From the NCBI RefSeq assembly GCF_050920415.1, contig NZ_CP169309.1: 64,000 nucleotides of DNA; one strand, written 5' to 3'. This DNA is from Escherichia coli. GTDB taxonomy: Bacteria > Pseudomonadota > Gammaproteobacteria > Enterobacterales > Enterobacteriaceae. The position numbers and the translations under genes are program-made. Shown here piece by piece: positions 50,218-64,000 of this stretch (position 1 is the stretch's first letter; the number at the start of each line of letters is the position of its first letter). A model generated the notes under the pieces. That model did not search any database, had not been told where the DNA came from, and worked only from the letters and a program-made list of their open reading frames with translations.

Positions 50218-51144
50218 ATGAATTATTCTTTAAAGCAATTAAAGGTTTTCGTCACAGTAGCGCAGGAGAAAAGTTTTAGTCGTGCAGGAGAGCGTATCGG
50301 CCTGAGCCAGTCGGCAGTGAGTCACAGTGTGAAGGAGCTGGAAAATCATACTGGTGTTCGCCTGCTGGACAGAACCACGCGTGAAGTGGTGCTTACAGAT
50401 GCAGGGCAGCAGTTGGCTTTGCGTCTTGAGCGACTGCTGGATGAACTTAACAGCACGTTGCGCGATACCGGGCGTATGGGGCAACAACTGAGCGGAAAAG
50501 TTCGGGTCGCTGCCAGCCAGACCATTTCCGCGCATCTTATTCCGCAATGCATTGCTGAAAGCCATCGCCGCTATCCAGATATTCAGTTTATCCTCCACGA
50601 TCGTCCGCAGCAGTGGGTGATGGAAAGTATTCGCCAGGGAGATGTCGATTTTGGCATCGTCATCGATCCAGGCCCAGTGGGCGATCTGCAATGTGAAGCG
50701 ATTCTTTCCGAGCCTTTCTTTCTGCTTTGCCATCGCGATAGCGCTTTGGCCGTGGAAGATTATGTACCCTGGCAGGCATTACAGGGAGCGAAATTGGTGT
50801 TGCAGGATTACGCGTCAGGCAGCCGACCGCTGATTGACGCAGCGCTGGCGCGCAATGGTATTCAGGCGAATATTGTGCAGGAGATTGGTCATCCGGCGAC
50901 GCTGTTCCCGATGGTAGCCGCAGGCATCGGCATCAGTATTCTTCCCGCACTGGCGCTACCATTGCCTGAAGGTAGCCCGCTGGTGGTAAAGCGCATTACG
51001 CCGGTGGTTGAACGCCAGTTGATGCTGGTGCGCAGGAAGAACCGTTCACTTTCCACCGCCGCTGAAGCGTTATGGGACGTAGTACGAGACCAGGGCAATG
51101 CGCTAATGGCTGGGCGGGAAGGGGATCCGTTGTATCAGATATAG
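50218..51144 (+). CDS. yfeR: LysR-family transcriptional regulator YfeR
   Basis: 308 aa; N-terminal LysR HTH ([23 protein letters not shown]). Confidence 0.88.
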
Positions 51145-51154
51145 AGTGAATTCA

Positions 51155-51177
51155 TACTGCCGGGAGCTCCGGCAGTA
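51155..51177. other. Perfect 9-bp stem hairpin between convergent yfeR and yfeN (possible terminator lacking a T-run)
   Basis: tactgccgg-gagct-ccggcagta. Confidence 0.4.
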
Positions 51178-51182
51178 ATCAA

Positions 51183-51947
51183 TCAGAAATTAAATTTGAT
51201 GGAGTAGATTATCGCATCCTGGTAAAAATCTTCGCCCAGTTTGTCATCCGCATAACGATACTGAATCCCTGTGGTGATGTGTGAAGTTGCATTCCACCAA
51301 AGTGCGACGGCACCATTCAGACCTTCTTTGCCGCCATTACCTGCCGCGTAGGTGGCATCACGATCAAACTCGTACTCGTTCCAGTTGGTGAGGGTGAATT
51401 TCTCACTGCCCAGCATAAAGCTGTAACCTGCAACCCAACCGGCGACATAACCGTTATCGCCGGTATAATAGGTTTGGTCTGTATAGCGTTTTGCAAAGAA
51501 CGGTTTGAACCACCAACCGCTGCCGGTGAAATTGTAGCCGATCCCGTAAAGGAACATATCGTCATGGAAATTCACACGATTCGCAGAACCGTAGGTGCCA
51601 TACGCATGCAAGTAGAGATTAAATCCGGTGTCACCCAGGTAAATACGGTTGGTATTTTTAAATGTATAACGCTGCTCGCTACCCTGTTTATCATGACGAT
51701 CATTATAAAAGTTTTCCCAGTCGAAGAACCCGTACATTTCTCCCCAACTAAAGTTAGCGCCGCCTTCCAGTTCCAGATATCCAAAATCATCTTTGTGTGA
51801 TTTGGTCGACGATTTCTCAGTGGTTCTGCTAGTCCAGTCAAGATAATGAATACCTATATCAGCAAAACCGCCTTTAAATTCTGCATGGGATACTGCTGGT
51901 ATCGCCAATACAGAAGAGAGTGTCAGAGTAAAAAGATGTTTTTTCAT
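51183..51947 (-). CDS. yfeN: Putative outer-membrane beta-barrel protein YfeN
   Basis: 254 aa; signal peptide; aromatic-rich alternating pattern and C-terminal F typical of OM beta-barrels. Confidence 0.85.
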   Translation of the reverse strand: MKKHLFTLTLSSVLAIPAVSHAEFKGGFADIGIHYLDWTSRTTEKSSTKSHKDDFGYLELEGGANFSWGEMYGFFDWENFYNDRHDKQGSEQRYTFKNTNRIYLGDTGFNLYLHAYGTYGSANRVNFHDDMFLYGIGYNFTGSGWWFKPFFAKRYTDQTYYTGDNGYVAGWVAGYSFMLGSEKFTLTNWNEYEFDRDATYAAGNGGKEGLNGAVALWWNATSHITTGIQYRYADDKLGEDFYQDAIIYSIKFNF

Positions 51948-52195
51948 AGCATAATTCCCTATGCCGATCGTTATTAGTTGATTGCTTAATAAAAAGGTTG
52001 ATTAAAAGCGGCATATTGTTAATGCAAGGGAAAGGAGAGTACCAATACAGTTTTTTCAGCCTATTAATAGTGAAAAAATATAAATATATCGATATCGAAT
52101 AACTATCGGATACATGAAAAAAGTGTATTGGTATGAGGTAGGGCAATCTCGTTATAAAAAGGCGTTAGATTCCACCCTACAAAAAAAGGATATAT

Positions 52196-53029
52196 ATGTA
52201 TCAGGCTCAGTTTTCTCATAACCCACTGTATTGCGTAGATATTATCAAGACTTATAAACCTGATTTCACGCCACGAGTGGCCTTTATTTTAGGTTCCGGG
52301 CTGGGCGCGCTGGCCGATCAGATTGAGAACGCGGTCGCAATTTCCTACGAAAAGCTGCCTGGGTTCCCGGTAAGTACCGTACACGGTCATGCGGGTGAGC
52401 TGGTGCTGGGTTATCTCCAGGGGGTGCCAGTGGCGTGCATGAAAGGTCGCGGACATTTCTACGAAGGTCGTGGGATGACCATCATGACGGATGCAATCCG
52501 TACCTTTAAGTTGCTGGGCTGCGAGTTGCTGTTCTGCACCAATGCGGCTGGCTCACTGCGTCCTGAAGTGGGGGCCGGCAGTCTGGTCGCATTGAAAGAT
52601 CACATCAACACCATGCCGGGAACGCCGATGGTGGGTCTTAATGATGAACGTTTTGGTGAGCGCTTCTTCTCGCTGGCGAATGCCTACGATGCGGAATACC
52701 GCGCACTGTTACAAAAAGTGGCGAAAGAAGAGGGGGTCCCTCTGACGGAGGGCGTGTTCGTCTCGTATCCGGGGCCGAATTTCGAGACTGCGGCGGAAAT
52801 TCGCATGATGCAAATTATTGGTGGGGATGTTGTTGGTATGTCTGTGGTGCCTGAGGTTATTTCAGCTCGCCATTGCGAACTTAAAGTCGTTGCGGTCTCT
52901 GCGATTACCAACATGGCGGAAGGTCTGAGTGACGTGAAGCTTTCTCATGCCCAAACGCTGGCAGCAGCGGAACTCTCAAAGCAAAACTTTATTAATCTTA
53001 TTTGCGGCTTTCTGCGCAAAATTGCCTGA
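52196..53029 (+). CDS. xapA: Purine nucleoside phosphorylase II (xanthosine phosphorylase)
   Basis: 277 aa PNP-family protein. Confidence 0.92.
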   Translation: MYQAQFSHNPLYCVDIIKTYKPDFTPRVAFILGSGLGALADQIENAVAISYEKLPGFPVSTVHGHAGELVLGYLQGVPVACMKGRGHFYEGRGMTIMTDAIRTFKLLGCELLFCTNAAGSLRPEVGAGSLVALKDHINTMPGTPMVGLNDERFGERFFSLANAYDAEYRALLQKVAKEEGVPLTEGVFVSYPGPNFETAAEIRMMQIIGGDVVGMSVVPEVISARHCELKVVAVSAITNMAEGLSDVKLSHAQTLAAAELSKQNFINLICGFLRKIA

Positions 53030-53089
53030 GTAAAACAACAATAAACGGCCTCACTGAGTGAGGCCATATGATGCGACAAGGAAACGATT

Positions 53090-54346
53090 ATGAGCATCGC
53101 TTTGCGCTTAAAGGTAATGTCCTTTTTGCAATATTTTATCTGGGGGAGCTGGCTGGTTACCCTCGGTTCTTACATGATTAATACCCTTCATTTCACCGGC
53201 GCTAATGTTGGCATGGTTTACAGTTCCAAAGGGATCGCCGCGATTATTATGCCTGGTATAATGGGGATCATCGCAGACAAATGGCTGCGTGCAGAACGTG
53301 CATACATGCTGTGTCACCTGGTGTGTGCAGGCGTACTTTTTTATGCGGCATCCGTAACTGATCCGGATATGATGTTTTGGGTGATGTTAGTCAATGCGAT
53401 GGCGTTTATGCCGACTATTGCGTTATCGAACAGCGTCTCTTATTCCTGTCTTGCCCAGGCAGGGCTTGACCCGGTGACCGCTTTCCCGCCCATTCGCGTT
53501 TTTGGTACGGTGGGGTTCATTGTCGCCATGTGGGCAGTAAGCCTGCTGCATCTGGAATTGAGTAGTCTGCAACTGTATATCGCGTCCGGTGCGTCATTGC
53601 TGCTGTCGGCTTATGCGCTGACTTTGCCGAAGATTCCGGTTGCGGAGAAAAAAGCGACTACATCGCTTGCCAGCAAGCTGGGTCTGGATGCCTTCGTGCT
53701 GTTTAAAAATCCACGCATGGCTATCTTTTTCCTCTTCGCCATGATGCTGGGTGCGGTGCTGCAAATTACCAACGTTTTTGGCAACCCGTTCCTGCATGAT
53801 TTCGCCCGTAATCCTGAGTTTGCTGATAGCTTCGTGGTGAAATATCCGTCCATTTTACTGTCAGTTTCACAGATGGCTGAAGTCGGTTTCATTCTGACGA
53901 TACCGTTCTTTTTGAAGCGTTTCGGTATTAAAACCGTCATGCTGATGAGTATGGTGGCGTGGACGCTGCGCTTTGGCTTCTTTGCCTATGGCGATCCATC
54001 ACCAACCGGGTTTATTTTGCTGTTGCTGTCGATGATTGTTTACGGTTGTGCATTCGATTTCTTCAATATTTCTGGTTCGGTCTTTGTCGAACAGGAAGTT
54101 GATTCCAGCATTCGTGCCAGCGCCCAGGGCCTTTTTATGACGATGGTAAATGGCGTCGGCGCATGGGTTGGCTCGATTCTGAGCGGTATGGCAGTGGATT
54201 ACTTCTCGGTGGATGGCGTAAAAGATTGGCATACCATTTGGCTGATGTTTGCAGGGTATGCTCTTTTCCTCGCAGTGATATTTTTCTTTGGGTTTAAATA
54301 TAACCATGACCCTGAAAAGATAACGCATCGTTCAGTTACACATTAA
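53090..54346 (+). CDS. xapB: Xanthosine permease (nucleoside:H+ symporter family)
   Basis: 418 aa 12-TM transporter. Confidence 0.92.
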   Translation: MSIALRLKVMSFLQYFIWGSWLVTLGSYMINTLHFTGANVGMVYSSKGIAAIIMPGIMGIIADKWLRAERAYMLCHLVCAGVLFYAASVTDPDMMFWVMLVNAMAFMPTIALSNSVSYSCLAQAGLDPVTAFPPIRVFGTVGFIVAMWAVSLLHLELSSLQLYIASGASLLLSAYALTLPKIPVAEKKATTSLASKLGLDAFVLFKNPRMAIFFLFAMMLGAVLQITNVFGNPFLHDFARNPEFADSFVVKYPSILLSVSQMAEVGFILTIPFFLKRFGIKTVMLMSMVAWTLRFGFFAYGDPSPTGFILLLLSMIVYGCAFDFFNISGSVFVEQEVDSSIRASAQGLFMTMVNGVGAWVGSILSGMAVDYFSVDGVKDWHTIWLMFAGYALFLAVIFFFGFKYNHDPEKITHRSVTH

Positions 54347-54597
54347 AAGGATTCGCAGCTCTGTTCCTTGGGGCTGCTTTCATGATAAAGGTTAATTAGT
54401 GAAAGATATTTTATTTTCTTCTGGCGTTGGTTTTGGCATTGGTGCTTTGTTTACAATCGTGCGATTACCTATTCCTGTTCCAAATGTATTGCCGGGTATA
54501 TTATCCATCGTGTTTATGTATGTCGGATATCTGGTGGTGAAATACTTTATGCCATGATAATTTAATACGATGTATTTTTTATATGGAGCACTTAATT

Positions 54598-55482
54598 ATG
54601 GAACGCATATATAGAACAGATCTTAAGTTGCTCCGTTATTTTCTTGCCGTAGCGGAAGAGTTGCATTTTGGTCGCGCAGCAGCGCGTTTAAATATGTCTC
54701 AGCCTCCGCTCAGTATTCATATTAAAGAGCTGGAAAATCAACTCGGCACGCAGCTTTTTATTCGCCATTCGCGCAGCGTCGTACTGACACACGCGGGCAA
54801 AATCTTGATGGAAGAATCGCGTCGATTGCTGGTGAATGCAAATAATATATTGGCTCGGGTTGAACAAATAGGTCGGGGAGAAGCAGGGCGGATTGAACTC
54901 GGGGTTGTGGGAACGGCAATGTGGGGACGGATGCGCCCGGTTATGCGGCGATTCCTTAGAGAAAATCCTAACGTTGAAGTTCTGTTTCGCGAAAAGATGC
55001 CCGCGATGCAAATGGCCTTGCTGGAACGCCGCGAACTTGATGCCGGGATCTGGCGAATGGCGACAGAACCACCGACTGGTTTTACCAGCTTACGGTTGCA
55101 TGAATCGGCGTTTCTGGTGGCGATGCCTGAAGAGCATCATCTCTCATCATTTTCCACCGTCCCGCTGGAAGCGCTACGTGACGAGTATTTCGTTACAATG
55201 CCGCCCGTGTACACTGACTGGGATTTTTTGCAGCGAGTTTGCCAGCAGGTGGGATTTTCACCGGTTGTTATTCGCGAAGTTAATGAACCGCAAACGGTAC
55301 TCGCCATGGTCAGTATGGGTATTGGTATCACATTGATAGCGGACAGCTACGCGCAGATGAACTGGCCCGGTGTCATATTCCGTCCGCTCAAAGAACGCAT
55401 CCCGGCAGACTTATATATTGTTTATGAAACGCAGCAGGTGACGCCCGCGCTGGTTAAACTGCTGGCGGCGTTGGCGCAGTAG
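54598..55482 (+). CDS. xapR: LysR-family activator of the xap operon, XapR
   Basis: ORF 54583..55482; start taken at ATG 54598 (MERIYRTDLKLLRYF...), 294 aa; the 54583 ATG is an alternative. Confidence 0.88.
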   Translation: MERIYRTDLKLLRYFLAVAEELHFGRAAARLNMSQPPLSIHIKELENQLGTQLFIRHSRSVVLTHAGKILMEESRRLLVNANNILARVEQIGRGEAGRIELGVVGTAMWGRMRPVMRRFLRENPNVEVLFREKMPAMQMALLERRELDAGIWRMATEPPTGFTSLRLHESAFLVAMPEEHHLSSFSTVPLEALRDEYFVTMPPVYTDWDFLQRVCQQVGFSPVVIREVNEPQTVLAMVSMGIGITLIADSYAQMNWPGVIFRPLKERIPADLYIVYETQQVTPALVKLLAALAQ

Positions 55483-55500
55483 ATGAGAGGCACGGGAACT

Positions 55501-55540
55501 GCCGGACATAGTTGGTCTGATAAGCGAAGCGCATCAGGCA
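55501..55540. repeat. REP element downstream of xapR
   Basis: gccggacatagttggtctgataagcgaagcgcatcaggc. Confidence 0.6.
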
Positions 55541-55552
55541 ATTTCGCAAATT

Positions 55553-55607
55553 GCAGATAGTAAAAAAGCGCCTTTAGGGCGCTTTTTTACATTGGTGGGT
55601 CGTGCAG
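55553..55607 (-). repeat. Direct repeat copy 1: tRNA-Lys 3'-end fragment plus terminator hairpin
   Basis: gcagatagtaaaaaagcgcctttagggcgcttttttacattggtgggtcgtgcag; on the minus strand this reads CTGCACGACCCACCA (tRNA 3' end) followed by an A-run/gcgcc/ggcgc/T-run terminator. Confidence 0.7.
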
Positions 55608-55674
55608 GATGACTCGCTTCGCTCGCCCTTCGGGCCGTCGCCGCGAGCGGCTCCGTTGTTTCGCTGCGCTCAAC

Positions 55675-55698
55675 TCGAACCTGCTGCAGGTTCGAATC
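55675..55698. other. Palindrome built from head-to-head tRNA T-arm fragments
   Basis: tcgaacctgc-tgcaggttcgaatc; GGTTCGAATC is the conserved tRNA T-arm, present in both orientations. Confidence 0.55.
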
Positions 55699-55708
55699 TT
55701 TGAGTATC

Positions 55709-55763
55709 GCAGATAGCAAAAAAGCGCCTTTAGGGCGCTTTTTTACATTGGTGGGTCGTGCAG
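55709..55763 (-). repeat. Direct repeat copy 2: tRNA-Lys 3'-end fragment plus terminator hairpin
   Basis: 55-bp copy with one mismatch to copy 1, 156 bp downstream of it. Confidence 0.7.
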
Positions 55764-55927
55764 AATCCTTATTCAGACTCTAACCTTTTGAAAAATCAAG
55801 AGATATAACACTAACAACCATCACTGTGGGCCTAATTATAGGCCCATTTTTGAAAGCTGCAAGTAAGAATTGATTTTGGTGATTTAAGTGCACAATTTTC
55901 AGGCAGCGCGGGAGTTGCAGCGGCATA

Positions 55928-56227
55928 TCAGGAGATCATTAACCCGGATTCACCTTCCACGATCACACCACCATGTTCGGTGGTATCTCCCATACGGGCA
56001 ACGGCTTTACCGTTAATTTTGAGAACCGTTGAACCGGAAACAATAGTGTCTTTGCTACCGCTACCTTTGCAGGTGAGCTTATCACCCACCAACGCCAGCG
56101 GAACACCATTATACGTAACAAAGGTCTGCTGACATTCACTGACCGGGCCACCAATATGTGGGCGGGGGCCGGGATCAACTTTCGGGCAGGTATGGTTATG
56201 TCCTTTGAGTACCACGGCTTTACTCAT
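55928..56227 (-). CDS. PAAR-domain protein (putative T6SS spike-sharpening protein)
   Basis: ORF 55928..56317 trimmed to ATG 56227, which overlaps the upstream stop as ATGA; 99 aa, MSKAVVLKGHNHTCP...LKINGKAVARMGDTTEHGGVIVEGESGLMIS with a PAAR-like KAVAR motif. Confidence 0.7.
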   Translation of the reverse strand: MSKAVVLKGHNHTCPKVDPGPRPHIGGPVSECQQTFVTYNGVPLALVGDKLTCKGSGSKDTIVSGSTVLKINGKAVARMGDTTEHGGVIVEGESGLMIS

Positions 56228-56982
56228 CGTCTGTTCTCCTGCGCAGTTTTTGTGAATATGTCCAGAAGTCGCCAGTAAGCATACTCCTGTTGTCCCAGAT
56301 TCAGGCAACCATACCACCGTGGATGCAGAGGATCATCAAAACAACGAAATCCGTCATAATATTGGGCTACTGCCAGTAGCACTTCGGCCTGTCCGCCGGA
56401 TTCATAGCGGGATAGCGCCCGCCTTGCACTAGCCATCAGTTGTCGGTATATATTTTCATATAGCTCAACTGTTGGCGAAAAAGCCGTTCTTTTTTCCACC
56501 GTATACAGGCGGGTGAAAATCTGACCACTCCCCAGCCAGGCATTGTGATATTGGGGGATAATGCAGTGAGGCGTATCCGGCCCCCAGGAATGTTTATAGT
56601 GTTCACTAAGCCAGTCAACAGACCAGTCATCTTTATGTGCTATCAGGTATGCAGGTATAGTCTCATCTTGCGGGGATGTCTTTGCACTAATGTAGTGTTC
56701 AACAATTTTCTGCAATTCCGTATAGCGGACATCCTCCATAAAAAACGATCCCAGGCACAATCTGGCACTGGCAATATGTATAGCAAGCAATTGATCAGGA
56801 ACTTTTTGAGTCTCAGTCCATTGATAGCTCTGTCTGATTAATTCATCAATAGCGGATGCGGGAAGCTTTCTGTCGGTAATAACCTTACCAAAGCGGTTTA
56901 CCAGCCAGACGCGGCCCTTTTTCAGAAATTCCATCATCCGGTGCTCCGCCAGACTACGGTAAGTTGCTTCTGTTATCCTCAT
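56224..56982 (-). CDS. Hypothetical protein, paralog of the 309-aa upstream gene; candidate T6SS immunity protein
   Basis: 252 aa; shares FMEDVRYTELQKIVEHYISA and LLAIHIASA motifs with FVKEALYTQNEVLLKEWLTA and IVLAIEMLAS of the neighbour. Confidence 0.45.
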   Translation of the reverse strand: MRITEATYRSLAEHRMMEFLKKGRVWLVNRFGKVITDRKLPASAIDELIRQSYQWTETQKVPDQLLAIHIASARLCLGSFFMEDVRYTELQKIVEHYISAKTSPQDETIPAYLIAHKDDWSVDWLSEHYKHSWGPDTPHCIIPQYHNAWLGSGQIFTRLYTVEKRTAFSPTVELYENIYRQLMASARRALSRYESGGQAEVLLAVAQYYDGFRCFDDPLHPRWYGCLNLGQQEYAYWRLLDIFTKTAQENRR

Positions 56983-57014
56983 GACTTCAGCCTCTCCCTT
57001 ACGCTATTGCAACA

Positions 57015-57944
57015 TTATTTAAAAAGCGTTTTTGTAAAAGCCAATTCCGGGTTAATGGCGATCAGTTTATCCAGCAATGGATAAAACCACTCCGGGGCAT
57101 TCCAGCGGCTGAAATCGGGGCGATGATCAATTGCCAGCGGTGTTTTTAACAGCGGATGATCGATTTCTGGGGTGGAAAGACCATGCTCTGCCCGAAAATT
57201 TTTTACTGCCTGATATTCAAACGGCCAGAGCAGCAATTCTCGGTCTTCAATTTCATAACCATTTCTGGCATATTCGTCTTCAGTTGTTTCGGTACGTGCC
57301 GACCATTTAAGATGGTTATCGCAAAGTGCTGTCAGCCACTCCTTCAGCAAGACTTCATTCTGTGTGTAGAGCGCTTCTTTTACAAACTGGGTATAAAAAC
57401 GATCAGAGGGGATACCAAATGTCTCCCAGTTGATAGTTTGTTTCTGTTCGCTGGCAAGCATTTCAATTGCCAGCACAATCATTTTTTGCGGTTTAAGCTT
57501 TTTAGCTTTTGCTACGTCAAAGTTTTTCAAACCTTGGGTGAAATAAGGATAATAAAGACGGGCGATATCAAGACGATGCGTTGCCATAAATGATAGGAGT
57601 GGAATTCCTTTCTTATAGAAAAAACCATCTAAGAAACCTGTGGTTTTAGAATATTGAATGGCTTCACAAAACAAATTCATGGATTTACATGCAACATAAT
57701 CACATATTAACGAGTTATCCTCTTTGTTTTTGTAAAATAAATACCACGCATATAGATAACAAAAGGATGAAGCTGCATCATAGAATATATATTGTGAATC
57801 AGATATTTCCTCGCCATTCGAATTGCCCACTTCTAATAAAGCATCAGAAATATCCTCATTGGAAATGTTTATATATCTGTTAACATCCATGTTAAAGGAA
57901 CTTTCATTAACAAAATAAGAATGAATTTCATTGTATCTTTTCAA
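57015..57944 (-). CDS. Hypothetical protein, paralog of the 252-aa downstream gene; candidate T6SS immunity protein
   Basis: 309 aa; AT-rich N-terminal third; C-terminal region homologous to the 252-aa ORF. Confidence 0.45.
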   Translation of the reverse strand: MKRYNEIHSYFVNESSFNMDVNRYINISNEDISDALLEVGNSNGEEISDSQYIFYDAASSFCYLYAWYLFYKNKEDNSLICDYVACKSMNLFCEAIQYSKTTGFLDGFFYKKGIPLLSFMATHRLDIARLYYPYFTQGLKNFDVAKAKKLKPQKMIVLAIEMLASEQKQTINWETFGIPSDRFYTQFVKEALYTQNEVLLKEWLTALCDNHLKWSARTETTEDEYARNGYEIEDRELLLWPFEYQAVKNFRAEHGLSTPEIDHPLLKTPLAIDHRPDFSRWNAPEWFYPLLDKLIAINPELAFTKTLFK

Positions 57945-57946
57945 TT

Positions 57947-58972
57947 TTAATTTCCTTCTTTTTGAGGAAGACTACTGTGAAAAGGAATATCCGTTTTAAA
58001 TTTATCTTTGACTATTTTTGCATCACCAAACCACAAGGAAATAGATGACATTCCCTCTGGGCAAGCTATGTTTTCAATTAATTTATATTCTTCGTTTATA
58101 CCTTGACCAATAACAAGTCCTATAACGCCCATTTCACCATTAGGTTTATTTTGATCTCGAAGTGCTTTTAGCAATTTTTTTACATTTCTTCGTTTTTCAT
58201 CATCCATCACATAACCACCTGGATTTTCTTTATTCATTTTTAACGCATTTTCAATTCTCTCTATAGCATAGTCAATGGCTCCCTCCTGTTTCTCTGATAA
58301 AATACCTTCATACTGCGTAAAATCACCTGCATCGTCACCATGACATGCCTTTGTTTTTACTTCACAGATCAGCCAAAAATCATCCGGCGGCGGTGAAGGG
58401 TTTTTTACTTTAGCAACAAGATCAAGGCCGTTTTTGGTTTTGACGTGCTGAACCGACATCACCGAACCTTCTACTACGCTGAAGTTAACGGTAGCCGTTG
58501 CCTGTTTAGCCTCCTTATTATAGATATGAAATTGTGCATTTCCCTGTTTCATCTTCCTGGCGAGAAGCACCTCGCCAACATCACCAGTAAACTGATTGAT
58601 TTTCAAAGAAAATAAGCTATCAAAAATCTTATTTTTAATCAAAAAATTAGCAACCTCAGTTGCGCTCATGCCAATTTCTGTATCGCCATTAACCTTTACG
58701 CGAAATGTTGCGTGTGTTGTACTGCCAGGCTCAAGCTCTGACTCAATACGTACAATTGCTTCCGTTGCATCTTTATTACCGGAACCTGACGCATGTGTTA
58801 TCCCTACAGTAATCCTGGTCGGGCCGGCTTGTTCTTCAAAAGTGGCAAAGGCCGTATTGGCTCTGAGGACTTCAGCCTCGGCTTCTTTTACTCTTTTCGC
58901 ATCATTAATCGCACGCCGGTTTACCTGCGTAACATTTACTGCATCTTCGATAGCCCCTGTACCTTTTCCCAT
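57947..58972 (-). CDS. Hypothetical protein with a possible PD-(D/E)xK nuclease motif; candidate T6SS toxin domain or immunity protein
   Basis: 341 aa; start overlaps the upstream stop as TAATG; literal PDDFWLICEVK matches the P-D...(D/E)-x-K pattern. Confidence 0.4.
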   Translation of the reverse strand: MGKGTGAIEDAVNVTQVNRRAINDAKRVKEAEAEVLRANTAFATFEEQAGPTRITVGITHASGSGNKDATEAIVRIESELEPGSTTHATFRVKVNGDTEIGMSATEVANFLIKNKIFDSLFSLKINQFTGDVGEVLLARKMKQGNAQFHIYNKEAKQATATVNFSVVEGSVMSVQHVKTKNGLDLVAKVKNPSPPPDDFWLICEVKTKACHGDDAGDFTQYEGILSEKQEGAIDYAIERIENALKMNKENPGGYVMDDEKRRNVKKLLKALRDQNKPNGEMGVIGLVIGQGINEEYKLIENIACPEGMSSISLWFGDAKIVKDKFKTDIPFHSSLPQKEGN

Positions 58973-60306
58973 TATTTTTCCACTCCCTGGTCTTCATTCT
59001 CAATCTTCATTGAGGAAACCTCTACTTCATTTACCAGTGCAACCTTACTGCCAAGGTAAGCGCCGCCACCACTGGTAACTAATGCTGAAGCAAATTTATA
59101 TTGTGGTTTTTTACCAAATACCATCAGGGTATTTATTGCATGAAAGGCCACTTCAATATTATGTCCCCCACCTGATTTTTTATCCAGATAGCGGGAAAAC
59201 TCAAGCAGTGGATTATATCCATCGGCTTTTGAACCAAGCCACCGATTACGCAGTTTATCCGCTACCTCAATACCATGATTGACATCCACAACAAGCATAG
59301 CAATACGAAGAACCTTCATTGAACCTTTTAAAAAAATAGTCCCGGAAACAATAGCAGCAATCGTCAGAAGTGCATCAGCGACCTCTAAAATAACATCCCT
59401 TACAACATCAAGAGACCGGTTCTCATCAGCCTGATTAAGAACGGCACGGATAAATTCTTCCGCCAGATCAGAGGGGGATTTATGTAATGGGCCGGCCAGT
59501 CTTTCAGGACGACTTCCTGCACTATTTGTCGCCAGCTCACCATATATCAGCGATACATCAAGTGTTTCATATGGACGGTATTTCAGTTGCTCATCGGTTA
59601 ACACATCCCGGTATTCAGCAGGAAGACCTATCGGAACTTCTGCATCTCTGTAGATATAAATATCCGGCGCAACCTCAACAACAAAATCATCTCCCCAGAA
59701 TGTACTGCCATGAGTTCTGGCATGTTCCACTTTATAATTATTACTGTAATAAGGGATAATATTTGCACCAACCTCATGGTATCTTAATTTAAATTTAGCA
59801 TCTTCCAGTTGAACGGTTTCTCCTTTATATTTAACAGCAAACCCGTTGCCGTCTGGGCTTTCCCTGGCCTGTTCGTCAAAAAGCAGTGCAAAATTGAGAA
59901 ATGCTTCATCCCCAAGTTGTTTTCTGACGGCATCAAAAAACGCATCCATTGCCACAATTTCTTTTGCTGTTTCAATAGCATTTCTTTCCGCATCCGTTAA
60001 ATCTGGCGAGTCCTGTATTGTTGCATAACGGGTGATTTCATTATTCAGACTACGGAGTGGAATACCTCGCTGTAAATGTACCTGTGAGGTCTTCTTATCC
60101 ACTGGCTCAAAGAAAGATCCCATGAAACTGGCTGTATTCTTATAAAAGTCTTCTATCGCCTGCTGTCCCTCAGCCGTTGAGCTGTCAAACTCCACAAAAG
60201 CGCCAAATGGTTTCAGCGGGCATGTTGCTGTTGCGCTTTTTGCATCACACGGTATTGCGTCAGAAGGAATGCTTCCCGTTGCCGCTCCGTCAGTATCATC
60301 CATCAC
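58972..60306 (-). CDS. Hypothetical protein; candidate T6SS cargo effector partnered with the DUF4123 adaptor
   Basis: 444 aa; sits directly downstream of the DUF4123 gene, the canonical effector position; hydrophobic segment ALLTIAAIVSGTIFL; no GxSxG lipase motif. Confidence 0.45.
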   Translation of the reverse strand: MMDDTDGAATGSIPSDAIPCDAKSATATCPLKPFGAFVEFDSSTAEGQQAIEDFYKNTASFMGSFFEPVDKKTSQVHLQRGIPLRSLNNEITRYATIQDSPDLTDAERNAIETAKEIVAMDAFFDAVRKQLGDEAFLNFALLFDEQARESPDGNGFAVKYKGETVQLEDAKFKLRYHEVGANIIPYYSNNYKVEHARTHGSTFWGDDFVVEVAPDIYIYRDAEVPIGLPAEYRDVLTDEQLKYRPYETLDVSLIYGELATNSAGSRPERLAGPLHKSPSDLAEEFIRAVLNQADENRSLDVVRDVILEVADALLTIAAIVSGTIFLKGSMKVLRIAMLVVDVNHGIEVADKLRNRWLGSKADGYNPLLEFSRYLDKKSGGGHNIEVAFHAINTLMVFGKKPQYKFASALVTSGGGAYLGSKVALVNEVEVSSMKIENEDQGVEK

Positions 60307-60322
60307 TTACACTCCTTTTTTG

Positions 60323-60898
60323 CTATATAAAGACCAGACTATTTTTTTCTTTTGGGTTTTCACAAATAATATTTGTCAGTCCGGTGGTAAATTCTGCAAA
60401 ATCGTCCGCAGGTAAAAAAGGAATAAAATCCCGCACTGTTTCAGGCGCATAATACCGGAACATGACCCACATTTTATTTACCTCATCATAAAGCTGATTA
60501 AATTTTCGCAGATGATGAGTCAGTTCATTCAGGGAAAGATAGCTGCGGATAAAAATACCCCAGCCATTACCCCGGCTGCTTCTTATCAGCCATTCCGTAA
60601 ATGGCTTATCTTTTTCCAGCCGGACGATATAAGGCGCATAAAGAGAAAACTGTTCTCCCAGTTCACCTTTCCATAAGCATGACCATTCCGTCTCATACGC
60701 ATCAAGTAAAACGGCAATATCCGGTTTTTTTAATGCATCAATGATGGCATAAGTGTGGCAGTCAGTTATTTTACTGGCAGATATCACTGATATATCATCA
60801 GATGCTGTTTTTTCCGGCATACTGAAAAGAAAGCCTGTCAGCGCATCCTGGTATAATTGTGTATCTTCCGGCACATCAATAATTTTCAGTCGGCTCAT
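60323..60898 (-). CDS. DUF4123-family T6SS effector adaptor/chaperone (Tap/Tec-like)
   Basis: 191 aa; YAIIDA, YAPYIV, HLRKF and RYYAPETVRDF motifs match my recollection of the DUF4123 signature; ATGA overlap with the vgrG stop. Confidence 0.75.
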   Translation of the reverse strand: MSRLKIIDVPEDTQLYQDALTGFLFSMPEKTASDDISVISASKITDCHTYAIIDALKKPDIAVLLDAYETEWSCLWKGELGEQFSLYAPYIVRLEKDKPFTEWLIRSSRGNGWGIFIRSYLSLNELTHHLRKFNQLYDEVNKMWVMFRYYAPETVRDFIPFLPADDFAEFTTGLTNIICENPKEKNSLVFI

Positions 60899-62967
60899 TT
60901 TTTCCCGTCCTCTTCTTCGGCCTGTTTTGCTTTCGCACAGATTTCGCAGAACGGTTTGCCCTCATTCACCATCGCCGTCAGTGCTTCCACCTGATCCACG
61001 CCGCCGCCCCGGATATCCATTGCTGGCGTCAGGATCTGAAGTTTTTTTGCCTTTATCGTAACGCCACCACCATCAATGGTCAGACTGCCGCCAGGCCCGG
61101 CGATCACCAGTCGCTCTCCGGCGTGCATAATGTATTTATTGGTCTGCGAAAAAATCTTCGTATTTACCGTTTCATCCTTCACGCCCTGGATCACCACCGT
61201 TTTATTGCCGCCAATATCGTCCAGGGAATCAGCAAATATTTTCTTTCTTTCCGAACTGTTCACCACCAGCGTCCGGTTTCTGTCCACTTCGATTTCCTGA
61301 TCCTGAACCACCCGGACAACGGAGTTCCTGCCGATGGTTTCATAGTGATCCCGGCCCACATCTGTTTTCTTGTCCTGACCAATGGTTTCCTGCTGGTCAA
61401 CGCCCACGCTTTTGGCGCGGTTATTACCGATGGTATGGCTTTCATCGTGCAGAATTTCCGTCACATGGTCTTTCTGCGCGTGCATATAGACCTGTTCCCG
61501 GTTTGTGGCGTCTTCAAAACGCAGTTCATTAAAACCCTCGCCCCGGTAGGTCTGCGTGCGGATAGTGGTCTGCGTTTTCGTTTCCGGTAAATCCCCCGGC
61601 GAGCGATTTTTCTCATGGTAGGTGCGCCCCATGATGATCGGCTGGTCAGGATCACCGTTTAAAAAATCGACAATCACCTCCTGACCCACACGCGGAATGG
61701 CAAGATGACCAAATCCCGTCCCGGCCCATGGCTGTGATACTCTGATCCAGCAGGAACTGTTCTCATCCTGTTTGTGATAACGATCCCACAAAAATTTCAC
61801 CCGCACCCGGCCATGCTCGTCGCAGAAGATTTCCTCACCTTCCGGCCCGGTGACGACCGCTGGTTGTGGGCCATCCACTTTCGGCTTAGGCTGCGGCGTG
61901 GGACGCCAGGTTTTATCCGCTGGTATGGCCTGAAACGTATTCACCAGCGTGGTTCCCTGGCCCCGGCTTCCGGGAACGGCCTGCGGCTGCTCGCCGTGCA
62001 GTTCGCTGGCGATCACCTGCCATTCCCGGTTCAGATCGTCAGCCGGATGATCGGTCAGCGTAAAGCGCGTACCGGGCCACAGTTTTGGCGAGTTGCTGCA
62101 TCCCCTGGCGATCTCCGCATCATTGCGCCAGCCTTCCATCTGGTAACGGGTAAAATCTCTGCCATGCTGTTCGTCCTTAAAACGCCCCGGATAGTCCATC
62201 ACCTCATACTGGTTGCGCTGGCCGTTAAGACTGGCGGCATTATGGCGAAAACGCCCCGGCCAGTCAGGGTATTTGAAGGTGTAGTCTTTGCTGATGACAT
62301 ACGCCGGGCGTATCTGCGCACTGTGGCGGAACTGGCTGATATACTCCGTTTCCGTGGCGCGGGGTTCCGGGTTAAACGGAAGGGGGAAGGCTTCCGGCAG
62401 GTAGTAAACTTTATCGCAGAACACCAGCGGCTGATCCTTCCCTTCACGGGCGTGCTCTTCGTAAAAAAATATCCCTTCTTCCGCCAGCAGGCGGCAGAGA
62501 AAACCAAAATCAGTTTCACCGTACTGCACGCAGAACTCCCGCGCCGGATGAGGCTCGCCCAGCAGATAAGCCGTCTGCATCACCCGGTTGTCATCCAGCA
62601 GGTGCTTAATAATGGACTGAATATCCTGCTGCTGAAAATGGCGAAAATTTTCCCGCAGGCTGCTGCGCCAGAAAGGAGGATGCACCCGCAGGTAGTAGTT
62701 CATTTTATGACCGTCATATTCCCCGCGCTCAATCCTGGCTACCAGCCCGGTGATATGGCGCTGTGCGGTATTGTTTTGCCACAGGGTAAGCGTGGCATTC
62801 AGTTCCAGCAGTTCCGTAGATTTAAGGTGGATAGTGTCGCTGATGAGATGAAGATCGAGGGTGAATAATGCGGAGTAATGCTGGGTAAGATGAAAGTTTA
62901 CGACGGCAAAGGTTTCTGTATCAAAATCGCCGATATCAACGGTAAAACGGGTTCCTGTCCGGGGCAT
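60895..62967 (-). CDS. vgrG: Type VI secretion system spike protein VgrG
   Basis: 690 aa; gp27/gp5-like body, e.g. CDEHGRVRVKFLWDRYHKQDENSSCWIRVSQPWAG and repetitive beta-helix region; short C-terminal tail EGKPFCEICAKAKQAEEEDGKK. Confidence 0.9.
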   Translation of the reverse strand: MPRTGTRFTVDIGDFDTETFAVVNFHLTQHYSALFTLDLHLISDTIHLKSTELLELNATLTLWQNNTAQRHITGLVARIERGEYDGHKMNYYLRVHPPFWRSSLRENFRHFQQQDIQSIIKHLLDDNRVMQTAYLLGEPHPAREFCVQYGETDFGFLCRLLAEEGIFFYEEHAREGKDQPLVFCDKVYYLPEAFPLPFNPEPRATETEYISQFRHSAQIRPAYVISKDYTFKYPDWPGRFRHNAASLNGQRNQYEVMDYPGRFKDEQHGRDFTRYQMEGWRNDAEIARGCSNSPKLWPGTRFTLTDHPADDLNREWQVIASELHGEQPQAVPGSRGQGTTLVNTFQAIPADKTWRPTPQPKPKVDGPQPAVVTGPEGEEIFCDEHGRVRVKFLWDRYHKQDENSSCWIRVSQPWAGTGFGHLAIPRVGQEVIVDFLNGDPDQPIIMGRTYHEKNRSPGDLPETKTQTTIRTQTYRGEGFNELRFEDATNREQVYMHAQKDHVTEILHDESHTIGNNRAKSVGVDQQETIGQDKKTDVGRDHYETIGRNSVVRVVQDQEIEVDRNRTLVVNSSERKKIFADSLDDIGGNKTVVIQGVKDETVNTKIFSQTNKYIMHAGERLVIAGPGGSLTIDGGGVTIKAKKLQILTPAMDIRGGGVDQVEALTAMVNEGKPFCEICAKAKQAEEEDGKK

Positions 62968-63406
62968 AACGTTTCCTTAGCAATAATACGGCTCAGAGAT
63001 AACGAAATCATTCATGAGCAATATGAATTATGATTAATAATTCGTAAAAGGAATGTATTTTATAATGACTCTTCCTGTTTTTAGTCAAAGTTGTCATTAT
63101 AATTAATATTATACTAATTAATTTCCAGAAAACTTCTGTAACCAGTAAAAACACTGCTCCGACAACCTAACATAATGTAAATTAACACTATTAACTGGAA
63201 ATTATCATCTTTAAGTTTACATAAATTCCGTGATGCATATCGCAAAGCGGTGATAAATATATATCCTGTGAAAATGAACTTTGCACCTCCACAGAATATG
63301 TTAACGTAATATCATATGGTAGCAGAAGGCTATTAATTAATTATCCGTATTATAAATCTTGTCTGACGCCTTTCTGTTTCTGCTGTATTACGGGAAGGAT
63401 TACCTA
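62968..63406. promoter_or_regulatory. AT-rich divergent control region between vgrG and tssF
   Basis: 439 bp, visibly AT-rich (runs such as ttataattaatattatactaattaattt); no ORF; flanked by divergent starts. Confidence 0.5.
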
Positions 63407-64000
63407 TGGCAATGAACGAACGTTTTTACCGGGAAGAACTGGATTATCTTCGTCAGTATGGCGCGCTGCTGGCGCAGGAATATCCCGCCCTGAAATCTTT
63501 CCTGGGCAGTAAAAACGCTGATCCGAACGTGGAACGCCTGCTGGAAGGGTTCGCGTTTCTCTCCGGCAGACTGCGGGAAAAAATCGAGGATGAGTTTCCC
63601 GAAATCACCGTTCCGCTGATTAACCGTCAGTGGCCCAATTATTTGCGCCCCGTTCCGCCGATGACCGTTATCGAATACACGCCGGACAGCTGCAGGCTTA
63701 CCGCTCCCCTGACCGTTTCACGCGGTGAGCAGGTGATGAATCCGGGGCAGGACAGCCAGCCGGAAAACAGCCGCCCCGGTGATGAATCAGGGGCTACCGG
63801 GGGGCCACCTTCCTGTATCTTCACTTTGTGCCGTGATATCCGCCTCCTGCCGTTGTGCATTGAAACAATACAGAGTCGCAGCAGCCCGCAATCCAGTACC
63901 CTTGATCTCATTTTCACCGTGACGGGAAAAGGCCGGATCGCCACCGCCGATCTGAATCAGATCAGTTTCTGGCTGGGCGATGCGGACGAACGCAGCCGCA
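63407..64000 (+). CDS. tssF: Type VI secretion baseplate protein TssF (ImpG/VasA family), N-terminal 198 aa; continues beyond the window
   Basis: Open frame from ATG 63407 to the window end with no stop (absent from the ORF track for that reason); MAMNERFYREELDYLRQYGALLAQEYPALKSFLGSKNADPNVERLLEGFAFLSGRL... matches the TssF N-terminal signature. Confidence 0.75.

What the first reader, a model, noticed from the sequence alone, without database searches (positions are those of the whole stretch)
62968..63406. AT-rich 439-bp divergent region between vgrG and tssF: probable silenced bidirectional promoter
The only long non-coding stretch in the T6SS part of the window is strongly AT-rich, with runs such as ttataattaatattatactaattaattt, and separates divergently transcribed vgrG and tssF. 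Horizontally acquired T6SS loci are commonly repressed through such tracts, so this is where regulation of both the cargo operon and the core genes would sit.
Basis: inference. Interest (0 to 1): 0.35.

Follow-up and report, generated by a model that had tools for sequence, protein, structure and literature searches.

The report
AT-rich control region of orphan T6SS island
The AT-rich gap between vgrG and tssF is real and is almost certainly where both operons' promoters sit, an ordinary kind of region, but it belongs to a small mobile island carrying only the spike and two baseplate genes rather than to a complete type VI secretion system.

Summary
A 438-bp non-coding stretch (62968-63405; the tssF ATG is at 63406) has 30.6% GC against 51.5% for the window. 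It separates divergent vgrG and tssF.

Both operons can only start here. Composition, TpA richness and horizontal origin fit H-NS-type silencing, but no promoter or protein binding was shown, and sigma70 matches are no better than in shuffled sequence.

The "T6SS locus" is a roughly 16-kb island at tRNA-Lys. It holds PAAR, cargo genes, DUF4123 and vgrG on one side and only tssF-tssG on the other. The same layout, always with a 28-34% GC spacer, recurs in at least nine further lineages.

Two E. coli alleles of the spacer are 80% identical, against 91% at fourfold sites of the flanking genes. Three blocks stay invariant:
- a 27-mer with a palindromic ATTATAAT, giving overlapping -10 hexamers on both strands;
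- the two arms of an inverted repeat, TAATTTCCAG.

Weaker leads are a CRP-like site and a minus-strand hairpin.

Verdict: an ordinary regulatory spacer in an unusual island. Interest is low to moderate.

The parts
62968..63405 (.). AT-rich divergent intergenic (control) region, 438 bp, 30.6% GC
   Evidence: The equivalent spacer is 220-438 bp and 28-34% GC in all nine lineages measured.
60895..62967 (-). vgrG, 690 aa; first gene of the leftward operon
   Evidence: Pfam Phage_GPD, Phage_base_V and Gp5_trimer_C. RefSeq annotation of the near-identical genome.
55928..60898 (-). Cargo genes downstream of vgrG: DUF4123 adaptor, four genes with no family match (probable effector and immunity genes) and PAAR. 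They are tightly packed, with overlaps or gaps of at most about 77 nt.
63406..64000 (+). tssF, 5' part (runs off the window); followed by tssG in the near-identical genome
   Evidence: Pfam T6SS_TssF 6e-40. L001 annotation shows tssF-tssG, then a hypothetical gene, an SfsB-like HTH gene, two integrase genes and tRNA-Lys.
62968..62989 (-). vgrG-proximal leader with a Shine-Dalgarno sequence AAGGAA (62973-62978 on the + ruler); 100% identical in both E. coli alleles
62990..63050 (.). Segment that is essentially replaced between the two E. coli alleles (61% identity)
63087..63113 (.). Invariant 27-mer AAAGTTGTCATTATAATTAATATTATA. It contains the palindrome ATTATAAT (63096-63103), which gives overlapping perfect -10 hexamers on both strands, and a further TATAAT on the - strand (63113 to 63108). 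Candidate shared bidirectional promoter core; the predicted curvature peak is at about 63116.
   Evidence: Longest identical run in the 72%-identical centre, permutation P=0.005. Hexamers. Curvature (parameters recalled from memory).
63119..63128 (+). Left arm of the inverted repeat, TAATTTCCAG, inside an invariant 16-mer (63119-63134)
   Evidence: only 2 copies in 64 kb, 0.14 expected; P=0.0016.
63195..63204 (-). Right arm of the inverted repeat, TAATTTCCAG, inside an invariant 17-mer (63189-63205). The arms are 76 bp apart centre to centre. Candidate paired operator sites, or -35-like elements (TTTCCA) of two face-to-face promoters.
   Evidence: P=0.017.
63229..63244 (.). CRP-like site CGTGATGCATATCGCA (8 of 10 core positions). 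The other allele has TATGATACACGTCACA (9 of 10) at the same position.
   Evidence: It is weak on its own (P=0.17 in this sequence). A perfect site occurs in the Citrobacter relative L016 and a 9/10 site in L012.
63261..63299 (-). Hairpin on the minus (vgrG-sense) strand, 16 pairs, -17 kcal/mol, terminator-like, followed by a weak U-rich tail
   Evidence: (z -4.9; the + strand gives only -7.6 kcal/mol). It is weaker in allele B (-12 kcal/mol, z -2.5) and shows no compensatory changes.
63267..63405 (+). tssF-proximal block, 92% identical between alleles. It holds a second symmetric -10-like cluster (63348-63356: TATAAA on +, TATAAT on -) and the Shine-Dalgarno sequence GGGAAGGA (63392-63399).

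Best explanation
The 438-bp stretch is the shared control region of two divergent operons in a small horizontally acquired island. One operon is vgrG-DUF4123-cargo-PAAR, running leftward. The other is tssF-tssG, running rightward.

Shown:
- the gene layout;
- the extreme and localised AT and TpA richness;
- its recurrence in every related island where it was measured;
- three phylogenetic footprints between the two E. coli alleles.

Inferred:
- Transcription starts from weak promoters driven mainly by their -10 elements. The best candidate is the invariant palindrome ATTATAAT at 63096-63103. It offers RNA polymerase a -10 element in both orientations, a shared bidirectional core as described for E. 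coli (PMC12825309). A second symmetric -10 cluster lies at 63348-63356, about 50 nt upstream of tssF.
- The flexible, locally curved AT-rich DNA is a preferred substrate for H-NS/StpA filaments. These would keep both operons off until an anti-silencer or activator acts.
- The conserved inverted repeat TAATTTCCAG (two copies, 76 bp apart) and the CRP-like site are the most likely places for such specific factors to bind.
For: - Topology: divergent genes, with no other gap above about 77 nt in the 7-kb leftward operon.
- Composition: 30.6% GC, lowest 0.4% of the window; highest TpA density in the window; predicted bend at about 63116.
- Horizontal origin: the island lies at tRNA-Lys with integrases and a 19-nt tRNA-Lys repeat at its far end, and is found in 1 of 5426 genomes.
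- A 28-34% GC trough between genes of about 49-61% GC is kept in nine lineages whose TssF proteins are only 57-66% identical.
- Complete T6SS-2-type relatives have the same kind of AT-rich divergent region, 29-33% GC and 580-697 bp. In EHEC that region is described as an H-NS-repressed bidirectional promoter (PMC13141884).
- Footprints: the three longest invariant runs in the 72%-identical centre are the -10 palindrome block and the two inverted-repeat arms (P 0.005, 0.017, 0.0016). The -10 hexamers are perfect and conserved on both strands.
- The centre has diverged far more than fourfold sites of the neighbouring genes (72% against 91%). H-NS-bound regulatory spacers in E. coli are reported to be unusually diverse (PMC4720273).
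Against: - No transcription start, H-NS occupancy or regulation has been observed for this sequence.
- Sigma70 -35/-10 scores are no better than in shuffled sequence.
- The Lang H-NS motif is not enriched.
- No motif is shared across lineages beyond what AT richness gives.
- Only two alleles exist, so the footprinting rests on one comparison.
- The curvature parameters, the sigma70 matrix and the transcription-factor consensus sequences were recalled from memory.
- The only complete genome with the island shows no T6SS-1 or T6SS-2 sheath gene, so what the region controls may be inert in this host.
Confidence: 0.6

Rival explanations
1. The region is controlled mainly by specific regulators rather than by generic silencing. 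A dimeric or looping repressor or activator binds the two TAATTTCCAG sites. CRP binds at 63229-63244 and ties expression to carbon status. This is not exclusive of the best explanation.
For: - The two inverted-repeat arms are the only copies of that 10-mer in 64 kb, and both are invariant in a diverged background.
- A CRP-like site sits at the same position in both alleles although its sequence has changed.
- In Citrobacter sp. wls619 the orphan spacer has a perfect CRP site and the main-cluster hcp|tssB spacer has a 9/10 site.
- The island encodes an SfsB/Ner-like HTH protein.
Against: - The window's CRP site matches only 8 of 10 positions (P=0.17), and five of nine lineages have none.
- It is not at a standard class I or class II distance from any good -10 element (my inspection).
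- I know of no regulator that recognises TAATTTCCAG.
- The repeat is absent from other lineages.
Confidence: 0.3
2. It is a plain, unsilenced divergent promoter spacer. The AT richness simply reflects relaxed constraint and mutational bias in non-coding DNA of a foreign island.
For: Promoter spacers are usually more AT-rich than genes. There is no enrichment of the H-NS motif. Sequence is not conserved across lineages.
Against: A 25-point GC drop kept in nine lineages with GC-rich flanks is much larger than I would expect for an ordinary spacer (own knowledge). The related EHEC region is reported to be H-NS repressed (PMC13141884).
Confidence: 0.2
3. It is a deletion scar in a decaying relic. 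A T6SS-2-type cluster lost hcp-tssB-tssC-tssE between vgrG and tssF, and everything after tssG. The spacer is left-over DNA with no present function.
For: - The layout equals a T6SS-2 cluster minus those genes.
- tssG is missing (L014, L019) or split or not called (L009, L010) in some lineages.
- The host genome lacks T6SS-1 and T6SS-2 tssC.
Against: - No remnant of hcp, tssB, tssC or tssE and no DNA homology to canonical spacers.
- The VgrG core, TssF and TssG stay intact and co-diverge over about 35-40% amino-acid divergence.
- Third-codon positions change four to eight times more than first and second positions between the E. coli alleles, which indicates purifying selection.
- There are invariant blocks inside the spacer.
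Confidence: 0.12
4. The spacer hides a small gene or small RNA. One example would be an RNA of about 90 nt on the minus strand, starting near 63342 and ending at the 63299-63261 hairpin.
For: The hairpin is strand-specific and stable (z -4.9). It lies in the well-conserved tssF-proximal block, downstream of a conserved minus-strand TATAAT at 63354-63349.
Against: - No Rfam match in the spacer.
- Substitutions between the alleles break two pairs and none is compensatory.
- The tail is only weakly U-rich, and I see no -35 element.
- The small ORFs have non-ATG starts, no ribosome-binding site and differing ends.
- Larger folds are unremarkable.
Confidence: 0.07

Closest known systems
hcp|tssB divergent (bidirectional) promoter region of the E. 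coli T6SS-2 cluster (EHEC), repressed by H-NS (PMC13141884)
   Same: It is a long, AT-rich (29-33% GC) spacer between divergent T6SS operons, with the spike and cargo genes on one side and structural genes on the other. It belongs to the closest complete relatives of this TssF, TssG and VgrG.
   Different: The flanking genes are vgrG and tssF, not hcp and tssB. The spacer is shorter (438 against 580-697 bp). There is no detectable sequence homology. H-NS control is untested here.
H-NS silencing of Salmonella SPI-6 T6SS promoters, and xenogeneic silencing in general (own knowledge; PMC4720273, PMC8894471)
   Same: Foreign island, AT- and TpA-rich regulatory DNA, and faster divergence of the regulatory spacer.
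   Different: No binding data exist for this sequence. The island's genes are more GC-rich than the host average, so only the spacer and some cargo genes are likely H-NS targets.
Bacterial bidirectional promoters with a shared symmetric -10 element (Warman, Grainger and colleagues; PMC12825309)
   Same: Perfect TATAAT hexamers overlap on opposite strands (ATTATAAT) and are conserved. Predicted starts would be about 21 bp apart, within the reported 10-23 bp range.
   Different: No start sites have been mapped and the -35 elements are poor. Genes would be reached only through leaders of about 120 nt (vgrG) and about 300 nt (tssF).
Fur- and Dam-controlled sci1 (T6SS-1) promoter of enteroaggregative E. 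coli (own knowledge)
   Same: A T6SS promoter in E. coli under tight repression.
   Different: The spacer has no GATC site and no Fur box above chance.
Auxiliary or orphan vgrG islands (hcp/vgrG/PAAR, adaptor, effector and immunity genes)
   Same: vgrG, a DUF4123 adaptor, unknown cargo genes and PAAR lie outside any main cluster, on a mobile island.
   Different: This island also carries the baseplate wedge genes tssF and tssG, divergently from vgrG. Four literature searches found no description of such an island.

Membership tests
H-NS (xenogeneic silencer) target region | AT content far above the genome average over hundreds of bp | tested here: met
   69.4% AT over 438 bp against 48.5% for the window; lowest 0.4% of windows by GC.
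H-NS (xenogeneic silencer) target region | Horizontally acquired context | tested here: met
   Island at tRNA-Lys with two integrase genes and a 19-nt tRNA-Lys repeat at its far end; present in 1 of 5426 complete E. coli genomes.
H-NS (xenogeneic silencer) target region | TpA-step-rich, flexible or curved DNA | tested here: met
   Highest TpA density in the window. Predicted bend at about 63116, in the lowest 0.5% of positions (parameters recalled from memory).
H-NS (xenogeneic silencer) target region | High-affinity nucleation motif TCGATAAATT | tested here: not met
   One 8/10 match against 1.3 expected in shuffles.
H-NS (xenogeneic silencer) target region | H-NS occupancy, and derepression in an hns mutant | not testable with these tools
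   Needs ChIP and expression data from an island-bearing strain.
Bidirectional promoter with shared symmetric -10 | Overlapping -10 hexamers on opposite strands | tested here: met
   ATTATAAT at 63096-63103, perfect on both strands and invariant in both alleles.
Bidirectional promoter with shared symmetric -10 | Divergent transcription start sites about 10-23 bp apart | not testable with these tools
   No transcript data. The predicted spacing is about 21 bp (inference).
Sigma70 consensus promoter | -35 and -10 hexamers at 16-18 bp spacing, scoring above background | tested here: not met
   2 sites against 2.1 expected. Best matrix scores were 6.3 and 7.2 bits against a shuffle mean of 9.0.
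T6SS-2 hcp|tssB promoter region (homology) | Sequence similarity to the canonical spacer, or remnants of hcp, tssB, tssC or tssE | tested here: not met
   Only low-complexity blastn hits; tblastn E-values of 1 or more.
Fur/Dam-switched sci1-type promoter | Fur boxes overlapping GATC sites | tested here: not met
   No GATC in the spacer. Best Fur match 13/19, P=0.25.
Sigma54-dependent T6SS promoter | TGGCAC-N5-TTGCW | tested here: not met
   Best match 7/11, P=0.99.
Known RNA family (Rfam) | Covariance-model match | tested here: not met
   No hit in the spacer at E<=1. The only hit in 55000-64000 is RtT at 55593-55718.
Complete T6SS gene cluster | The 13 core genes tssA-tssM clustered | tested here: not met
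   The island in the near-identical genome has only vgrG (tssI), tssF and tssG, plus PAAR. Every related locus fetched has the same layout.
Orphan or auxiliary vgrG island | vgrG with adaptor, effector or immunity genes and PAAR, away from a main cluster | tested here: met
   The presence of tssF-tssG is an addition not typical of the kind.

The most novel reading that the evidence does not exclude
The spacer is the control hub of a previously undescribed mobile 'spike plus wedge' satellite: VgrG, TssF, TssG, adaptor, toxin cargo and PAAR, carried on integrase islands. The satellite would supply its own matched baseplate subunits so that a foreign VgrG-toxin set can be mounted on a resident T6SS-2-type machine. 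The palindromic -10 core and the paired TAATTTCCAG sites would give coordinated two-way firing of spike and wedge genes. The unusually fast turnover of the rest of the spacer would reflect rewiring to each new host.
Probability: 0.2. Interest if true: 0.65.

Novelty: new member of a known kind. Interest (0 to 1): 0.3.

Why it matters
On its own the spacer is one more AT-rich divergent promoter region of foreign DNA. Its practical value is that it gives defined, testable elements for switching this island on: the ATTATAAT core, two repeat arms, a CRP-like site and a hairpin.

The wider point is the island around it. A coherent, widely diverged family links a VgrG to its own TssF and TssG without the rest of the machine. 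If these proteins work with a resident T6SS, baseplate wedge subunits would be exchangeable cargo-matching parts. That would bear on how new VgrG-effector sets become compatible with existing secretion systems.

Tried and rejected
- Rfam scan of 55000-64000 at E<=1: nothing in the spacer.
- Small ORFs: three minus-strand ORFs of 33-48 aa, with GTG or TTG starts, no ribosome-binding site and different ends in the other allele. Rejected.
- RNA folds of the tssF leader, the vgrG leader and the inverted-repeat region: z = +1.0, -1.3 and -1.75. Unremarkable.
- Remnants of hcp, tssB, tssC or tssE, or homology to canonical hcp|tssB spacers: none.
- Repeated element or MITE: no other copy in 5426 E. 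coli genomes or in 72,556 plasmids.
- Motifs shared across lineages: none beyond chance. TATAATTAA occurs in 3 of 7 lineages, P=0.53.
- Consensus scans for Fur, sigma54, FNR, LexA, IHF, PhoP, ArcA, RcsB and SlyA: none above chance in the window. The consensus strings were recalled from memory.
- Lang H-NS motif: not enriched.
- More alleles for footprinting: three further E. coli loci fell into the same two allele classes.
- Inverted repeat I1 (63060-63069 / 63093-63102): the left arm is not conserved in allele B. Dropped.
- The tool's + strand promoter TCCACA-16-TATCAT at 63288-63315: the -10 is destroyed in allele B (TCCCAT). Dropped.
- Four literature searches for an orphan vgrG|tssF-tssG island: nothing found.

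Full report
**1. Observation**

The non-coding stretch is 62968-63405 (438 bp). The left neighbour (60895-62967, minus strand) is a VgrG and the right neighbour is TssF.

GC is 30.6% against 51.5% for the window. Only 0.36% of 438-bp windows are as AT-rich, and all the others lie in cargo genes at about 57.5-58.3 kb. TpA-step density is the highest in the window. The quoted run is at 63097-63124.

Inside the island this is the only sizeable gap. The seven leftward genes overlap or are separated by at most about 77 nt. A second non-coding stretch (55483-55927) lies at the island border and holds an RtT-like element.

**2. What the surrounding locus is**

The window matches E. coli MFDS1022581 (NZ_CP169399.1) at 99.985%, apart from one IS2 insertion in that genome. 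It is the only one of 5426 complete E. coli genomes with this sequence.

Its annotation shows the full island. Reading from xapR, the order is:
- an RtT-like element;
- PAAR, four hypothetical genes, DUF4123 and vgrG, all on the minus strand;
- the spacer;
- tssF and tssG on the plus strand;
- a hypothetical gene, an SfsB-like HTH gene and two integrase genes;
- tRNA-Lys.

A 19-nt copy of the tRNA-Lys 3' end lies at the far border. The island is about 16 kb, sits at lysV, and has no other T6SS core gene.

A chimeric-query search gave one matching place only in that genome. The query joined an island segment to the tssC gene of T6SS-2, and in a second search to the tssC gene of the EAEC T6SS-1. 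Neither sheath gene is therefore detectable there by megablast. T6SS-3 was not tested.

**3. Relatives**

TssF homologues of 56-66% identity form a small clade. Every member whose context I fetched has vgrG (-), an AT-rich spacer and tssF(-tssG) (+), with variable cargo (Rhs proteins, or DUF4123-linked cargo genes with no family match) and often integrase genes. The hosts are:
- E. coli, in two variants;
- Salmonella salamae and S. houtenae;
- Citrobacter sp. wls619;
- Escherichia sp. MOD1-EC7003;
- an Enterobacter;
- a gut Enterobacteriaceae isolate;
- metagenome contigs.

Only 3 of 100,044 species-representative genomes carry it, and no plasmid does.

The VgrG core, TssF and TssG co-diverge. 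They are 66-74%, 57-66% and 70-75% identical to the window's proteins within the clade, against 60%, 50% and 55% for T6SS-2. Between the two E. coli variants, third-codon positions change far more than first and second positions. This indicates purifying selection.

tssG is absent (L014, L019) or split or not called (L009, L010) in some lineages.

The next TssF clade (about 50% identity) is the complete T6SS-2/EHEC type. Its layout is rhs, vgrG and hcp leftward, a spacer, then tssB, tssC, tssE, tssF, tssG and the remaining core genes rightward. Citrobacter sp. wls619 has both a complete cluster and the orphan island.

**4. The spacer across relatives**

In nine lineages the spacer is 220-438 bp and 28-34% GC, between genes of about 49-61% GC. 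The sequences do not align except between closest pairs. No word is shared across lineages beyond chance.

Canonical hcp|tssB spacers are equally AT-rich (29-33% GC, 580-697 bp). They show no homology to the orphan spacers, and the orphan spacers hold no remnant of the missing genes. What is conserved is therefore composition, not sequence.

**5. Footprints within E. coli**

Only two alleles exist. They are 80% identical overall, whereas fourfold-degenerate sites in vgrG, tssF and tssG are 91% identical.

| Segment | Identity |
|---|---|
| 62968-62989 | 100% |
| 62990-63050 | 61% |
| 63051-63136 | 85% |
| 63137-63266 | 69% |
| 63267-63405 | 92% |

Within the 72%-identical centre, three invariant runs stand out (permutation P 0.005, 0.0016 and 0.017):
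- 63087-63113;
- 63119-63134;
- 63189-63205.

The first holds the palindrome ATTATAAT (63096-63103). This gives perfect -10 hexamers on both strands. A third TATAAT lies on the minus strand. The other two runs carry the arms of the inverted repeat TAATTTCCAG, the only two copies of that 10-mer in 64 kb.

A second symmetric -10-like cluster lies at 63348-63356. A predicted bend peaks at about 63116 (parameters recalled from memory).

**6. Promoter and regulator scans**

- The consensus scan found 2 sigma70-like sites against 2.1 expected.
- My approximate matrix gave best scores below the shuffle mean.
- There is no GATC site in the spacer.
- Fur, sigma54, FNR, LexA, IHF, PhoP, ArcA, RcsB and SlyA consensus matches are at chance.
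- A CRP-like site (8/10) at 63229-63244 is matched by a 9/10 site at the same position in allele B. L016 has a perfect site and L012 a 9/10 site. The Citrobacter main-cluster spacer also has a 9/10 site. This is a lead, not a result.

**7. RNA-level features**

There is no Rfam hit in the spacer, and larger folds are unremarkable.

A minus-strand hairpin at 63299-63261 is unusually stable (-17 kcal/mol, z -4.9). It is strand-specific. In allele B it is weaker, and no change between the alleles is compensatory.

**8. Interpretation**

By topology the promoters of both operons must lie in this spacer or inside the opposite gene. Three things make H-NS-type silencing the most likely regime: the composition, the foreign origin, and the documented H-NS repression of the equivalent region in the closest complete systems (PMC13141884). 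The excess divergence of the spacer also fits what is reported for H-NS-bound regulatory spacers (PMC4720273).

The conserved symmetric -10 elements fit the bidirectional promoter architecture described for E. coli (PMC12825309). All of this remains inference; no binding or transcript evidence exists.

The right-hand operon is only tssF-tssG, and the island is an orphan.

**9. Verdict**

A few concrete, testable elements were found in it. The more unusual thing is the island family it serves, and that is recorded separately.

Noticed in passing
window about 55600-64000, continued in L001 12650-28900: The 'T6SS part' is an island of about 16 kb at tRNA-Lys that carries vgrG, cargo genes and PAAR, plus only tssF-tssG of the structural genes. 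The same vgrG|tssF(-tssG) module recurs in at least nine other lineages of Enterobacteriaceae, with VgrG core, TssF and TssG co-diverging. Four literature searches found no description of it.
   Followed up: partly
NZ_CP169399.1 (whole genome; L001 is part of it): The only complete E. coli genome with the island shows no T6SS-1 or T6SS-2 tssC by megablast, so the module may have no machine to work with there. In contrast, Citrobacter sp. wls619 has both the orphan module (L016) and a complete T6SS-2-type cluster (L026).
   Followed up: partly
window 57481-58340: A second stretch is as AT-rich as the spacer (28-34% GC), but it is coding. It lies in two cargo genes with no family match (57015-57944 and 57947-58972). 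Predicted curvature peaks lie at about 57409, 57614 and 58631. It may be a further H-NS target or recently swapped cargo.
   Followed up: no
window 55592-55770: An RtT-like element (Rfam RF00391, 51.6 bits, 55593-55718) lies at the island's left border. Two copies of the tRNA-Lys 3' end are also here: an exact 19-mer at about 55592 and a one-mismatch copy at about 55748. They are probably the attachment-site repeat of the island.
   Followed up: partly
window 62990-63050 and 63137-63266: The two E. coli spacer alleles differ far more here (61-69% identity) than neutral sites of the adjoining genes do (91%). This suggests replacement by recombination or accelerated turnover of regulatory DNA.
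   Followed up: partly
L009 11824-12881, L010, L014 11861-11900, L019 11858-12090: tssG is split into two ORFs (L009) or not called (L010) in S. houtenae, and is absent from an Enterobacter locus and one further locus where tssF abuts host genes. This indicates decay of the module in some hosts.
   Followed up: no
L016 205-220 of the spacer; L026 7355-7370: In Citrobacter sp. wls619 the orphan spacer has a perfect CRP site (TGTGATAATTATCACA). The main-cluster hcp|tssB spacer has a 9/10 site. This hints at common CRP control in that host.
   Followed up: partly
window 50227-50235 against L001 6001-7327: MFDS1022581 has an IS2 inserted between yfeH and yfeR that the window lacks. The 9-bp overlap of the two alignments looks like the target duplication.
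   Followed up: no
L002 1-2520 against window 50218-55927: In the allele-B lineage the island abuts yfeR directly. yfeN, xapA, xapB and xapR are missing there.
   Followed up: no
L001 23718-24430 (just beyond the window end): A 153-aa protein with no family match and an SfsB/Ner-like HTH protein follow tssG. The pair recurs in other lineages (L011, L023-L025), and the 153-aa ORF is also seen in L018. The HTH protein is a candidate island-encoded regulator, or the pair may be an addiction module.
   Followed up: no
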